A stretch of DNA of 64,000 bases from Perkinsus olseni. Its lineage: Eukaryota. A program made the translations under genes and the position numbers. Below, one piece after another: positions 50,934-56,541 of this stretch (its first letter is position 1; the number at the start of each line of letters is the position of its first letter). The stretch spans positions 1 through 64,000 of the forward strand of contig JABANN010000051.1 in assembly GCA_013115125.1 (NCBI GenBank). Direction: 5' to 3'. The notes beneath the pieces were generated by a model. That model was not told the origin of the DNA. It worked only from the letters and a program-made list of their open reading frames with translations, and made no database searches.

Positions 50934-53900
50934 ATGTCCACTACTGCCGGTCCTGTTCTCCACGATCTCTTCAGACAGCAAGCAGCCAGGACTCCTGATC
51001 ACATTGCTGTTGTTGGAGGTGGTGCAGGTAAAACTATCCCTTCGGACGGTCGTAGCTGATGCTATCCTTGCTAGGTGGTCTGCCCTATACCACCCTCACC
51101 TACGCTGAGCTCGAAGCCCTCAGCGACTCCTTAGCGGCTCGACTTCAGTCCGAGTATAACACTGGGATAGGCTCCCTAGTTGGTATCTACATGCCCAAGG
51201 ACGCTGGCTACATCGTCAGCTACATCGCCGTTCTCAAGGCTGGCGGAGCGTAATTTAATAGGGGCAACACAGGAAAAGGTTAGTAGTCTGTTTTCAACGC
51301 CAGGTATATGCCGATTGACGCCAACTACCCCAATGACTTGCTCGAGATGGTCATGCAGGATGCCAAGCCGTCGTGCGTCTGTAGGCTGGCGTGATCTGGT
51401 GGAGGGGGCCTCGAGGAGTATCTTTGCCGCGCTCAGGCACCACAAAGGCTCTGGCTGCGAAGCTACCGGAGTCTCAGAAGAAGTTTATTTTTGATGAGGA
51501 TTCTACGGCTTGGCGCAAGGAGCTTAGCGATGGTCGCAGGCCGGAGAACTTGAATGTGAAAGATACTGACCCGGCCTACTGTGTTTATTCCAGCGGTGAG
51601 TTACTGAGGAGTTGCGGGAAATGTGGTATGGCGTCACGTTCGGGTTACAGGTACCACAGGGAAGCCTAAGGGCATTGTGTGTCCTCATAGAGGAGCTGTG
51701 GTGAGCTATGACTACAGGTTTAAGGCGTACCCATATGGCAAGGATGAACGGGAAGCCTGTAATAGGGAGGGGTTACATCATATGAGTTGTTCAGGGCGTG
51801 GTAGTGTGGCTAAGGGGAGTACGATACCTTCGCCTTCGCTGTGCATCGAGCATTGAGATGAAGTTGTGTCTACCTGAGTCTTGGTGTCCCTTTAGTGAGG
51901 GGTATCGGATATCTTTTGTAGGTAACGTGTTTTTCGTCTGGGAGCTCCTGCGTCCCTTACTCAAGGGCGCCACGCTCTATGTCGTGCCCGATACTGTCAT
52001 CTACGACTCCACTGTGCTGCCTGAATACGTAAGAGGCTGAAGCTAGGCATGCGACCGTGAAGGCCGGCCGGTCTCTGTCAGATCAAAGACAACGAGATCA
52101 GCAGGATGCTGTTCACACCGTCGCTGTTGGAGGCGATGCTGGACTCTCCTGGGGTTTCCGATATGACTGGACTGCAGCTTGTGGTGGGTTTGGAAGCGCC
52201 ACTTTTTTCGTCATGACTCAGTGCTTCAGATTCTTTGCGGTGAGGTGGTATCCACCCAGCTGCGTCAAAAGATACGCCGGAATCTGCCCAACACAAGGAT
52301 CCACAATTTGTAACACCTGGCTCGCCTCCACCAGCTCCTCGTGGTAGTTTTCTCTCTGCAGGTATTCCGTCTCTGAGTGCCACGATGTTGCCGGGTCGGA
52401 CCTCTCGGTTGATGATCCCCAACTGGACCCGTCCAATAGGAAGTTCTGCCCCGTTGGTAACTTGCTTCCTCAAGTTAAGGTAATATCAGTCTCGGGGAGG
52501 CCTCCTCGGCCTCTAACGGAAACGTTCCCACGTTCAATGCTGCCCTATTGTAGCACTTCTTGATACAGATTTCTCGGTCCCCTCGGCAACATTGTGAGTG
52601 GCTCATGTTGTTTCTGTTGTAGGCGAACATCCTAGATCCCGAGTCCTTGGAGCCTGTCCCTCTGGGTGTGGCTGGAGAGATCTACGTTGAAGGCCCTACA
52701 CTGGCTATTGGATACCTCAACCGCCCCGAGTTAACAGCAGCCAAGTTCATCACTAGGGATGGCAGACGAATGTGAGCTCGGTCACGTCTCTCGCTTCCTT
52801 GTCACTTCTCGGACCTGGTGAAGGGATATTAGGGTTCGACGTTATTACTTCGGCCCACTGCGACCTCGCGGTAGACTGGCCCAGGCTGGCCGGGATGGTA
52901 AAATTGGAATTTGAACTTCCCTCACCCTGACAATCTCGGATAGTATTTGTGGTCCTGACTGCCCGGTCAGCTGCCATGTTTCTCCCTAGGTATAAGACTG
53001 GTGATGTGGGGTATGTCGTGGAGGGAGGTATGCTGGAGATATCCGGAAGATGCGATTCTATGGTCAAGATACGTGGATACTCTATCGAGCTCAAGGCGGT
53101 AAGGTTGATGACTAGGCTTAGTCGTATACACTCTGAGGCAGTACTCGAATATCTTCCTTGACTCATGGGCGATAATCGAATATCGTCTTAATGGCTCTAT
53201 GAGTCTCAGAGTCTCAAGCCCCTTGGCTCTATGTTAGAGCCAAGGGGCTTGAGACTCTTTCCCATCGCGGAGGGTGCGTGATGGCATCGAATGAGGCCAA
53301 ACAGACCGCGAAACCACTACTCGCGATAATAGTCGGCTCAAACCGCTCCTCGGTCATGCCTGGGGTTTGTTGATTGCCTGATACCGTCCGTCTATCACTA
53401 ATGTTTAGATGGAAGAAATCTGATCACGCTGGTCTTACATCCTGCTGGAATTGCGCGGTGCAGGTACAAGTAGCGATGTATGAGCTCTGTGGCGATATCA
53501 TCCATGAGTGTATCGTCACTACGGCCATGCACAACGATGACAGGAAGCTCGTCGCCTACGTGGTAAGCTTAGGACTCGCCGCCGACTGGTCCTGGGATAG
53601 CTTTGTCTGTGTCGCAGGTGCGGAAGGACCCCTCAGCTGATCCTAATCTCGTGAAGAAGACTATCAAGTCCAAGCTGAAGAGCCGCCTTCCCTTCTACAT
53701 GATCCCCACCTATATATGTGTATTGGAGAGCCTTCCCGTTAACAGTAGGACTCGGGGACCTAGGAAAGACTCTGAGAGAAGGCTCTCGAATGGACCCGGG
53801 CTTCAGTGACTCGGAACAGCGGACGAAAGGGTACTTTGTTGATGGCAGGCACTTCCGGCAAGCTGGACGCGAAGAGGCTGCCGGAGATCGACTTTGCCAA

Positions 53901-56541
53901 TGAGGGCACAGACATGACTGTGCCGCCGTCCACCACCACTGAGCGTAGTCGCCCCCATAACGCTTCGTCAGTTCTAAGCGGCAGTCTGTCGGCAGGTACG
54001 ATCGCCTCTATCTATGCGAGAGTGCTGGACATTCCGGTTTCCACGGTCGATGTGACCTTGGGATTTTTCGAACTGGGAGGGTGAGGCAGCGGTCAGGGCC
54101 TCTGTTCTGCAGGGGAGGGTTGCTGCTCTCATCAGGCATTCGCTGTTGACAATAAAACTCCTTCAACTACTCAATGCTGAGTACCCCGACAAAGAGATCA
54201 CACTGCAGGACTTGTTCGACCATCAGTCGGTAGGTTGGTGTGGCTGCTTTTTGGCGTCTTGCTGGGCTTGTCAGTGTCGAACTCTCGTGTGGATTATATT
54301 GGGGAGAATCCTCTCGATTTCTCCGACTTATTTCTCCGGCTGTATTTGTCCGATGACGGTCCGCTTCGCTCCGCTCATTTTCGGGATTTCTGAGTGTCTT
54401 GTGTGTGGATAGCTAACTTGCCTTGCCAGGTTCGCAGGATGGCAGATTTCATAGTTGCTGATAGGGCCGTCTCTGATGAAGAGCTTGATCTGTAGGGAGG
54501 AGCTGAGGTTGCGTCTTCTCATTCTTGTCGCAACCCCCCTCAGGCATCAAGAAGTTTCAGTCCTGCAAAAGTCTTTCCTCATCAACCCCGCCTGCATGCA
54601 GCAGGTGAGGGCCTTCTGGCGGAACATCGTCAACGAGGGGGCACTCGGCAACTCCAGAGTAAGGGGGATAGATTCTGCCGAGCTGCAAGGGCGCATGCTG
54701 CTCTCAGGTTCTACTCACTGGCGCGACAGGGTTCCTGGGCTCGCACATCTTAGCGAGCCTCCTGAAGAGCAGTCCTCGGATATCAGTGTACTGCCTTATT
54801 CGGCCTCCAGTAGACAGACTCAGCTGGCATGAGGATGACGGTAATAGCGGACCTCCATTCGGGTGTAGCGAATTTATCATCTCGATTTCACGAGAAGGTC
54901 GAGCGTGGTGAAGTCATTTTCCCTGTACTCTCTCAGCGTCCCCTCACTCGACGGCCTCCCCTGCCGCTGCCTGCCGCCGTCGTCTACTGGCGACTCTGGA
55001 GCAATACCACCTCATGGGGGGTGACGGACTCAACTCGGCTGATGTGAAGGACCGTGCCCACATTCTGGTACGCAGCGAAGACTCCTTTGGTGTGATGCTC
55101 ACGGGCTCTCCGTCAGGTCGGCGACGTATCATTGGAGAGCTTTGGTATGCCCTCTGAGGACTACGACTATTGGACTACCCATGTCGACTGTGTTGTCCAC
55201 GCTGCAGCTCAAGTTAACCTACTGTACCCCTACCAAGCTCTCTTCAAGGGCAACGTAAGTCGAGGAGGACATTGGGTATATTTTCCGTTGGGAATCATTC
55301 ATGGTGGTTGCTGATGGGCCAAGGGACTGCATATTCAGCCCCTCTGAATTCACCTTACCCTTGTGAAGGCAACACTCAAGTTTTATAACATCATAACGGG
55401 AGTACCGTGTGGTCAGGGGACAGTTCCCTGTCAGGTTCAAGCATCGGTCCACGTAGCATCGTTCTGCCTGTATAACAAGGTGAAGCCCCTCCACTACGTC
55501 AGCACTGATGCCGTTTTCCCAGTGGGCAAGGAGAGGCACTACGCCGAGGACTTTTCTATTTTCGATGCGAAGTCTCCGGTGGCGAACGAGCTCAAGAGCG
55601 GCTACGCTCAGACTAAGTGGGCGGCCGAGGACTTGATCCACAAGTTTGCTGAGTCCACAGGGCTGCCGTCGGTCATCTACCGGCTCGGGAATCTTGGTGG
55701 ATACGTAGGCCCCGATGGTCTGGCGACATGGAACCCTCGCGATTCCAATTTGGAGTTCTTGCGGGCGTGCGTTGAACTGGGGATGGTGCCAGCGCAGACC
55801 GAGGGCCTCCACCTCGAGCTCACGCCTGTTAACTTGGCCAGCGATTTCATAGTGGATTGCCTGTGGGATATTCGACACACGAACGGGAAGGTCTTTCATC
55901 TCATCCAGCCGAATACGATACCTATGGGTGACGTTTTCACCTGTCTTAGCTCGGCTGGCTACAAGGTGGAGCAATGCTCTCTGGACGCCTGGCCGGCTGA
56001 TGGCACCTTCATGAACCGAGACACTGTGAAGGAGCTCTGCGGGGACAACAACACCTACGGAGTTGAAAACACTGTGTCAAGGATCCCATCTGGGAAGTAC
56101 TTTGAAGTCGAACTGTCGACGTTGCAAGAGTACATCCGCGGGCTCGGGCGAGCGCAGTTGCTACCGTCGGCTCCTGAGGGACCACTCTCTGGCATGGTCA
56201 TCTCGCTGGTTGGACTGCCCTCTTCTGATACCTTGCAGCGTACTTTGCAGTCCCAGGGAGCCCTGGTGGTCCCTGCGGGTGGGTTCAAGGTCCTCTATGC
56301 GGCCAGCGGCTGTGATGTGGCCTCGGTTATTAACGACGTGTGCAAGAAGTTGCCCGCGTTTAAGGGAGTTAAGGGCGCTATCATCACCACCCTTGACAGC
56401 AACAGTATCCAGGAGAGAGGGCTCAATGCTTTCTTGGCCGAGGTCGCCCGTGGCATGGCCATCCCCATGCTTGCCCTGCCGGCCAGCAGCTCCATCGACA
56501 GTGTAGCGCAGTATGTCAGTGCCTGTGCCAAACACCAGTGA
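50934..56541 (+). CDS. NRPS-like A-T-R enzyme of the ATRR (glycine betaine reductase) type, with a vestigial C-terminal SDR
   Basis: A domain: [75 protein letters not shown] domain: FFELGG|HSL. R domain: VRAFWR...[30 protein letters not shown]. About 20 introns. Confidence 0.9.
53208..53258. repeat. Perfect 24-bp stem hairpin inside an intron
   Basis: agagtctcaagccccttggctcta-tgt-tagagccaaggggcttgagactct. Confidence 0.95.

What the first reader, a model, noticed from the sequence alone, without database searches (positions are those of the whole stretch)
50934..56541. ATRR-type NRPS-like reductase whose second reductase domain is reduced to a vestige
Seen: intact A, T (GG|HS serine) and first R domain ([13 protein letters not shown]), with ATRR-like A-domain motifs ([15 protein letters not shown]). 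The tail (~56170-56541, ~120 aa) begins like an SDR ([12 protein letters not shown]...LQSQGALVV) but has no TGxxxGxG or YxxxK and is about half SDR length. Established: fungal ATRR (A-T-R-R) reduces glycine betaine to the aldehyde with R1 and then to choline with R2. Inference: this protist enzyme stops at the aldehyde, uses a separate reductase, or keeps the stub only as a structural element. It would be a variant route for using betaine, a common osmolyte of marine invertebrate hosts.
Basis: partly seen in the sequence, partly recalled or inferred. Interest (0 to 1): 0.75.

Follow-up and report, generated by a model that had tools for sequence, protein, structure and literature searches.

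The report
Betaine reductase missing its second step
A shellfish parasite expresses a betaine-reductase-type enzyme whose second reducing domain has shrunk to a catalytically dead but conserved stub, while an intact look-alike of that domain is a separate gene; this may bear on the parasite's known, unexplained need for host betaine.

Summary
Confirmed. The 22-exon gene gives a 1154-aa A-T-R1 protein identical to a Perkinsus olseni record. Spliced contigs from four runs read through the stop to about 56580, with no extra SDR exon. Its A-T part nests in the ATRR family beside protist enzymes that mostly keep R2, so the loss is derived. The 122-aa tail has no SDR motifs but is conserved in three Perkinsus species (75-79%; neighbouring gene 54%). 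Only its first ~36 residues resemble R2, and weakly. The genome also holds an intact stand-alone R2-like SDR (up to 52% identical to fused R2s), the likely partner; descent from this gene's own R2 is neither shown nor rejected. Betaine is the likeliest substrate (same pocket code as Meloidogyne ATRR), but one cage Trp is Ile and a diatom homologue reduces tryptophan. R2-less homologues are already reported in diatoms. P. olseni needs betaine and is not rescued by choline or betaine aldehyde (PMC10577664). That argues against a simple choline-supply role, yet choline- and betaine-aldehyde-dehydrogenase-like genes read open here, so an uptake block is also possible. The scan's earlier notes did not show this gene elsewhere.

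The parts
50893..50933 (+). 5' end of the transcript: trans-splice acceptor AG at 50893-50894 and short 5' UTR
   Evidence: Contigs of 4 runs start at 50893; the loose end in run X5 fits the end of the published 22-nt Perkinsus leader
50934..56541 (+). Coding sequence, 22 exons, 1154 aa, A-T-R1-stub. Exons: 50934-51027, 51075-51249, 51304-51380, 51437-51595, 51651-51758, 51922-52028, 52082-52183, 52230-52309, 52362-52479, 52623-52771, 52990-53098, 53464-53562, 53618-53744, 53849-53944, 53996-54080, 54136-54229, 54430-54491, 54544-54658, 54708-54840, 54937-55067, 55117-55254, 55435-56541
50955..53880 (+). Adenylation domain (aa ~8-512). Pocket code V207 F208 W211 L250 I275 C277 L301 D309 V310 K506; I275 (52230-52232) stands where the fungal enzyme has Trp270
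   Evidence: Pfam AMP-binding; code read from an alignment (position scheme recalled from PheA, checked against spacings); coordinates
53998..54453 (+). Thiolation domain (aa 535-601), phosphopantetheine Ser564 at 54140-54142
   Evidence: Pfam PP-binding; Ser in 120 of 120 homologues
54708..56151 (+). R1 thioester reductase (aa ~653-1025): TGATGFLG 54717-54740, Tyr843 55603-55605, Lys847 55615-55617
   Evidence: Pfam NAD_binding_4; Tyr and Lys in 120 of 120 homologues
56173..56541 (+). 122-aa C-terminal stub in place of R2, plus stop; the first ~36 aa (56173-56280) weakly match R2 beta1-alphaB-beta2; no cofactor or catalytic motif
   Evidence: 75.5% identical to P. chesapeaki over 98 aa and 78.5% to P. 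marinus over 107 aa
56542..56581 (+). Short 3' UTR; RNA contigs end at 56578-56581
56749..58744 (+). Separate downstream gene of no known family; some database models wrongly join it to the NRPS-like gene
   Evidence: Separate, lower-depth contigs in run X1; no Pfam match; fused models P0002, P0423, P0425

Best explanation
A Perkinsus ATRR orthologue that has become a one-step, CAR-type reductase. The A domain adenylates a small cationic acid, most likely glycine betaine, and loads it on the phosphopantetheine arm at Ser564; R1 releases the aldehyde using NADPH. The in-chain second reductase is dead and survives as a folded stub under purifying selection. The aldehyde is most likely reduced to choline in trans by the intact stand-alone R2-like SDR (272 aa, G000:C2613, minus strand, about 71280-72545). 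Shown: gene structure, expression, motifs, family placement, loss of R2 catalysis, existence of the intact SDR. Inferred: substrate (about 65%), two-electron stop at R1 (about 80%, by analogy to the fungal enzyme), the SDR as partner (about 60% given the first two), R2 ancestry of the stub (about 80% for its start; not shown for the rest).
For: A-T tree: Perkinsus sits inside the ATRR-like set (100/100 against 5 bacterial outgroups) as sister (100/99) to a six-row cryptophyte and unnamed-protist clade; four of those six have an intact R2, one a Tyr-to-Phe R2 and one is a model that ends inside R1. 102 of 120 homologues carry a near-full R2. The pocket code VFWLICLDVK is shared with 16 of 120 homologues, among them Meloidogyne incognita, whose ATRR relieved betaine toxicity in yeast and has a His/Ile variable pocket site (PMC11050029). 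In the fungal enzyme R1 stops at the aldehyde and an excised R2 works alone (bioRxiv 559534). The stand-alone SDR has TGASSGIG, NCAG, Ser and YNASK, is 89.7% identical in P. marinus, 47-52% identical to its 8 best R2 matches (13 of 101 rows printed; lowest 30%) against 30-39% for 79 of 80 bacterial SDR loci and 46% for one, and was the most R2-like of 10 matches in the genome. A PPTase-family match and two choline-kinase-family loci exist in the genome. All six Perkinsus species tested grew on betaine and none without betaine or a precursor.
Against: Neither choline nor betaine aldehyde rescues P. olseni growth; both predicted products would be expected to, unless they are not taken up, and choline-transporter-like matches lie on 4 contigs. 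The third cage aromatic is Ile (Trp in 66 of 120 homologues). The diatom A-T-R1-R2 enzyme makes tryptophanol (PMC13194791), so the family is not betaine-only. The nematode evidence is indirect, with no purified-enzyme assay in the Results section I read. The SDR's place in the R2 tree is unresolved (group support 92/55; AU p=0.38 for joining the sister clade's R2), and stand-alone R2-like SDRs also occur in animals that keep a full ATRR and in bacteria, so it need not serve this enzyme. The SDR lies on another contig. No fungal or diatom sequence was in my alignments.
Confidence: 0.42

Rival explanations
1. The enzyme reduces another substrate (an aromatic amino acid, or another betaine or acid from the host) to an aldehyde. 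R2 was lost because the aldehyde is the product, and the link to betaine is incidental.
For: The diatom homologue reduces tryptophan and has Phe at the site where Perkinsus has Ile. R2 is lost or dead in other protist lineages: three diatoms and P0004, P0043, P0143, 3 of 101 R2 domains. Neither ATRR product rescues growth.
Against: The code is identical to Meloidogyne ATRR and to 16 of 120 homologues from animals and protists, which points to an old, general substrate. F208, W211 and the acidic D309 are kept.
Confidence: 0.25
2. R1 performs both reductions itself (four electrons), as some NRPS terminal reductases do (recalled, e.g. MxaA), so R2 became dispensable and no partner is needed.
For: The best solved-structure match covering R1 among the 60 shown is MxaA (4u7w, E 1e-35). 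R1 motifs are intact and R1 is 87% conserved between species.
Against: Fungal ATRR R1 is strictly two-electron. The MxaA match reflects what is in the PDB, not closeness.
Confidence: 0.15
3. The enzyme makes betaine aldehyde and stops; the aldehyde is re-oxidised or used otherwise, so the enzyme tunes the betaine pool rather than supplying choline. Betaine itself is what the parasite needs.
For: A BADH-like gene reads open (about 505 aa; 4 of 4 exons tested hit BADH best). Choline does not replace betaine in P. olseni. The fungal enzyme also protects against excess betaine.
Against: An ATP- and NADPH-consuming cycle that frees a reactive aldehyde is costly (inference), and an intact R2-like SDR is present.
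Confidence: 0.13
4. The tail is mostly not R2-derived: a short R2 start joined to unrelated sequence that became a small structural or targeting domain. This concerns the tail only and is compatible with the readings above.
For: No hit by BLAST, HMM or unanchored profile comparison. After residue 36, 112 of 120 shuffles score as well. The unbiased model is low-confidence (pLDDT 54).
Against: It starts where R2 starts, matches the R2 start and not the R1 start (2 against 136 of 500 shuffles), and both models give alternating strands and helices in the order expected of the first half of a Rossmann fold.
Confidence: 0.25

Closest known systems
Fungal ATRR glycine betaine reductase (Aspergillus nidulans AN5318; bioRxiv 10.1101/559534, whole text read, supplement not seen)
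   Same: A-T-R1 layout, no Asp235-type residue, Phe and Trp of the cage, an acidic residue at the Glu304 site, R1 motifs.
   Different: R2 is reduced to 122 aa without cofactor or catalytic motifs; Trp270 site is Ile; Glu304 site is Asp. It resembles the paper's R2-dead mutants, which accumulate the aldehyde.
Meloidogyne incognita MiATRR (PMC11050029; Results section and search passages read)
   Same: Identical ten-residue pocket code in the database model of that species (P0104); parasite of a betaine-containing host.
   Different: MiATRR has a full R2 (1306 aa by cloning); its activity is shown only indirectly.
Diatom PtNRPS1 and its R2-less homologues (PMC13194791; abstract and sections 6, 7, 12 read; supplements not read)
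   Same: Same family and layout; the paper reports homologues lacking R2 in Fragilariopsis, Pseudo-nitzschia and Nitzschia.
   Different: PtNRPS1 reduces tryptophan and has Phe285/Glu319 at the two pocket sites. In the sections read there is no conserved stub and no separate R2-like partner.
Carboxylic acid reductases and Lys2 (A-T-R)
   Same: Works like them if it stops at the aldehyde.
   Different: Scores far below the family cut-offs (Lys2 269 of 1030 bits; CAR 118 of 1300); the A domain is ATRR-type.

Membership tests
ATRR (A-T-R1-R2) family | A-T region groups with A-T-R1-R2 proteins | tested here: met
   Careful tree of 36 rows (14 of 50 left out for run time or long branches): inside the family at 100/100, sister clade at 100/99 (same result with all 50 rows, quick tree). 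No fungal, diatom or Lys2 sequence was included.
ATRR (A-T-R1-R2) family | C-terminal YdfG-like R2 with NADPH motif and catalytic Tyr | tested here: not met
   122-aa tail with none of the motifs; transcripts end 39 nt after the stop; 0 tblastn hits of 101 R2 domains in the window.
ATRR (A-T-R1-R2) family | Betaine pocket: three aromatics plus an acidic residue | tested here: inconclusive
   F208, W211, D309 present; third aromatic is I275. The same code occurs in 16 of 120 homologues, including Meloidogyne.
ATRR (A-T-R1-R2) family | Phosphopantetheine Ser in T; GxxGxxG and YxxxK in R1 | tested here: met
   Ser564, TGATGFLG, Tyr843, Lys847.
ATRR (A-T-R1-R2) family | Reduces glycine betaine to choline | not testable with these tools
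   Needs biochemistry.
Classical SDR (the tail) | TGxxxGxG, NxAG, YxxxK and about 250 residues | tested here: not met
Classical SDR (the tail) | Rossmann-type fold | tested here: inconclusive
   Models at pLDDT 54 and 56. The model built with R2 rows matches small alpha/beta/alpha domains, best Z 7.1, rmsd 3.2 over 98 residues, but that alignment biases it.
ATRR R2-like SDR (stand-alone gene, G000:C2613) | Full-length SDR with cofactor and catalytic motifs | tested here: met
   272 aa, 7 exons, all motifs; Pfam adh_short E 1e-56.
ATRR R2-like SDR (stand-alone gene, G000:C2613) | Descends from the R2 of this gene's lineage | tested here: inconclusive
   In the R2-like group at 92/55, position open; AU p=0.38.
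Lys2 alpha-aminoadipate reductase | TIGR03443 curated cut-off | tested here: not met
   269 bits against 1030.

The most novel reading that the evidence does not exclude
Perkinsus runs a naturally split ATRR: the A-T-R1 chain makes betaine aldehyde and the separate R2-like SDR, possibly held by the conserved stub, finishes it to choline. In P. olseni, whose choline-oxidation genes read open, the failure of choline and betaine aldehyde to support growth would then be an uptake block for the two cations, and imported host betaine reduced inside the cell would be its route to choline. That would give a mechanism for the published, unexplained betaine requirement of this mollusc parasite.
Probability: 0.2. 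Interest if true: 0.8.

Novelty: new variant of a known kind. Interest (0 to 1): 0.6.

Why it matters
The betaine requirement of P. olseni is published with no mechanism: methionine does not replace betaine, and the authors infer loss of betaine synthesis (PMC10577664). This genome holds an expressed ATRR-type enzyme, an intact R2-like SDR, and open choline- and betaine-aldehyde-dehydrogenase-like genes, so that inference has a rival and the question now has named genes. For enzymologists it is an RNA-confirmed natural version of the R2-dead ATRR mutant, and one of several independent R2 losses in protists. Eight literature searches listed no paper on this gene; most subscription journals are outside the library.

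Tried and rejected
Tail homology: BLASTP against the closest full R2 was not significant; an R2 HMM gave no hit; hhalign put the best hit at the expected place but at E 0.08, with 16 of 100 shuffles as good; whole-tail alignment 8 of 120 and first 102 residues 5 of 120 shuffles as good; the ESM Atlas gave no usable hit. The unbiased fold gave only weak ferredoxin-like matches, best Z 6.6; Foldseek found nothing at E<=0.001 for either model; no SDR was listed, which does not exclude one. The complex prediction of tail with the stand-alone SDR returned no verdict (score 0.00, alignments not used, tail fold uncertain). The representative-protein search was swamped by multi-module NRPSs and served only for outgroups. 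The grouping of the Perkinsus SDR with the long-branch P0004 (93, quick tree) was not trusted; P0004 and P0043 were left out of the careful tree. Fusion with the downstream gene (database models P0002, P0423, P0425) was rejected: contigs read through the stop in 4 of 4 runs, though 12 joints were not displayed. Of the 18 of 120 homologues without a near-full R2 several are partial models (the Meloidogyne database model lacks an R2 that cloning showed), so I did not count them as losses. No BCCT transporter match and no BHMT-type gene seen: the only S-methyl_trans locus reads like cobalamin methionine synthase (motif reading recalled); the single PEMT match is weak (32.7 bits). These are misses in a fragmented, intron-rich assembly, not proof of absence. 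A phosphoethanolamine methyltransferase was not searched for. No gene cluster: neighbours are a glycosyltransferase-4 gene, FMO-like genes and an unknown gene.
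Full report
Gene and transcript. A chain of 21 GT-AG introns turns 50934-56541 into one 1154-aa frame, identical to a Perkinsus olseni protein record. The last exon found only itself in the genome. Spliced contigs from four runs cover 50893 to about 56580. The last exon is continuous through the stop, the length laid in run X4 (3545 nt) equals the model plus short UTRs, and the 15 joints shown, of 27, match the model. 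A loose 5' end fits the published Perkinsus spliced leader (PMC3101222, search passages only). Database models that fuse the gene to its downstream neighbour are not supported by the contigs.

Family. Pfam gives A (13-502), T (535-601) and a thioester reductase (655-924). The 120 non-Perkinsus homologues examined are animal and protist proteins, 102 with a near-full R2. In A-T trees Perkinsus nests in this set and is sister to a cryptophyte and unnamed-protist clade, most of whose members have an intact R2. R2 loss is therefore derived. The Lys2 and CAR models score far below cut-off. No fungal, diatom or Lys2 sequence was available for the trees.

The tail. It has 122 residues and no SDR motif. 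It is kept in P. marinus with the same end and in P. chesapeaki, at 78.5% and 75.5% identity, against 87-90% for the catalytic domains and 54% for the neighbouring gene: conserved, but less strictly. It begins where R2 begins in an alignment anchored by R1. Unanchored tests do not detect R2 homology. A start-anchored test does for the first 36 residues of P. olseni (1 of 300 and 2 of 500 shuffles; of 206 windows of the protein itself only two, at the true R1 start, score higher), but only weakly for P. chesapeaki (48 of 500). The rest carries no signal. Two low-confidence models show alternating strands and helices that fit the first half of a Rossmann fold; the one built with R2 rows resembles small alpha/beta/alpha domains at Z up to 7.1, which is within the common range. 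'Vestige' is likely for the start and unproven for the remainder. Loss of catalysis is near certain.

Substrate. The pocket code is VFWLICLDVK (the position scheme is recalled and was checked against residue spacings). Two of the three cage aromatics of the fungal enzyme and an acidic residue are kept; the third aromatic is Ile. That site is Trp in 66, Ile in 24 and Val in 14 of 120 homologues, and the whole code recurs in 16 of them, including Meloidogyne incognita, whose enzyme relieved betaine toxicity in yeast. Against this, the diatom family member reduces tryptophan. I put betaine at about 65%.

A candidate partner. Searching the genome with an R2 domain gave 10 matches; the most R2-like is a 7-exon, 272-aa SDR on another contig with all motifs intact, identical to a P. 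olseni record and 89.7% identical in P. marinus. It is closer to fused R2 domains (best eight 47-52%) than to nearly all bacterial SDRs retrieved (30-39%, one 46%). Its branch falls in the R2-like group with weak support and no resolved sister; a position beside the sister clade's R2 is not rejected. Stand-alone R2 copies recur in animals next to their own fused R2, and in actinobacteria, so its presence is suggestive and not diagnostic. The fungal R2 works when excised, so a split system is chemically plausible.

Physiology. PMC10577664 (parts 1-5 of 6 read: all of the main text; supplement not read) shows that betaine supports growth of six Perkinsus species, that choline or betaine aldehyde replace it in four but not in P. 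olseni or P. beihaiensis, and that methionine does not help; the authors infer loss of betaine synthesis. In this assembly a choline-dehydrogenase-like gene (about 578 aa; 3 of 3 exons tested hit choline dehydrogenase best) and a BADH-like gene (about 505 aa; 4 of 4 exons) read open under hand-chosen GT-AG chains; their expression was not checked and the strain may differ from the one cultured. So gene loss does not obviously explain the result. An uptake block for the two cations would, and would leave the reductive route as a possible reason for needing betaine. The plain reading of the same data cuts against it: neither product of the ATRR route rescues growth, and choline-transporter-like genes are present.

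What is known. R2-less homologues are already mentioned for three diatoms, and 3 of 101 R2 domains here have lost a key residue. A conserved stub, a stand-alone R2-like partner, or any link of this gene to Perkinsus betaine dependence did not appear in the searches listed under Why it matters. Earlier notes of this scan concern other NRPS-like genes of the genome, not this one.

Verdict. It works like a one-step carboxylic acid reductase of ATRR descent and fails the ATRR membership test on R2. Best reading: betaine to aldehyde in cis, aldehyde to choline in trans (0.42). New variant of a known kind; interest 0.6, chiefly because it attaches testable genes to an open question in a mollusc parasite.

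Noticed in passing
window 55435-56541: The last exon is 1107 nt while the other 21 are 62-175 nt. Intron loss from the 3' end through a cDNA intermediate could also have shortened R2; speculation.
   Followed up: no
G000:C2213 about 157040-159500 (L104) and G000:C2812 about 15640-17880 (L115): Choline-dehydrogenase-like and betaine-aldehyde-dehydrogenase-like genes read open, although P. olseni is reported unable to grow on choline or betaine aldehyde.
   Followed up: partly
proteins P0004, P0043, P0143: Full-length R2 domains with lost key residues (catalytic Lys and a Gly; catalytic Tyr to Phe, like the fungal null mutant; a Gly to Ala), suggesting repeated independent inactivation; P0043's cluster has 42 members.
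   Followed up: partly
proteins P0304, P0306, P0357, P0397: Stand-alone R2 copies in hemichordates, a sea urchin and a coral group with fused R2 domains of their own lineages.
   Followed up: partly
proteins P0319, P0346, P0362, P0389: Rubrobacter and other actinobacterial SDRs are about 60% identical to an animal R2 and fall in the R2-like group; possible betaine aldehyde reductases in bacteria.
   Followed up: no
protein P0119: An ATRR-like A domain protein with a thioesterase family match and no R2 match, grouping at the base of the family.
   Followed up: no
window about 30550-39500, minus strand: At least two similar FMO-like genes in tandem.
   Followed up: no
window about 46700-48100, minus strand: Glycosyltransferase family 4 gene fragment, divergent from the NRPS-like gene.
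   Followed up: no
window 56749-58744: Transcribed gene of no Pfam family, 54% identical in P. chesapeaki.
   Followed up: partly
G000:C309 about 20900-29500: Tandem array of at least five similar SDR genes, only distantly like R2.
   Followed up: no
G000:C2547 about 35600-36700 (L105): The only S-methyl_trans locus reads like a cobalamin-dependent methionine synthase and not a betaine-homocysteine methyltransferase (motif reading recalled), in line with methionine not replacing betaine.
   Followed up: partly
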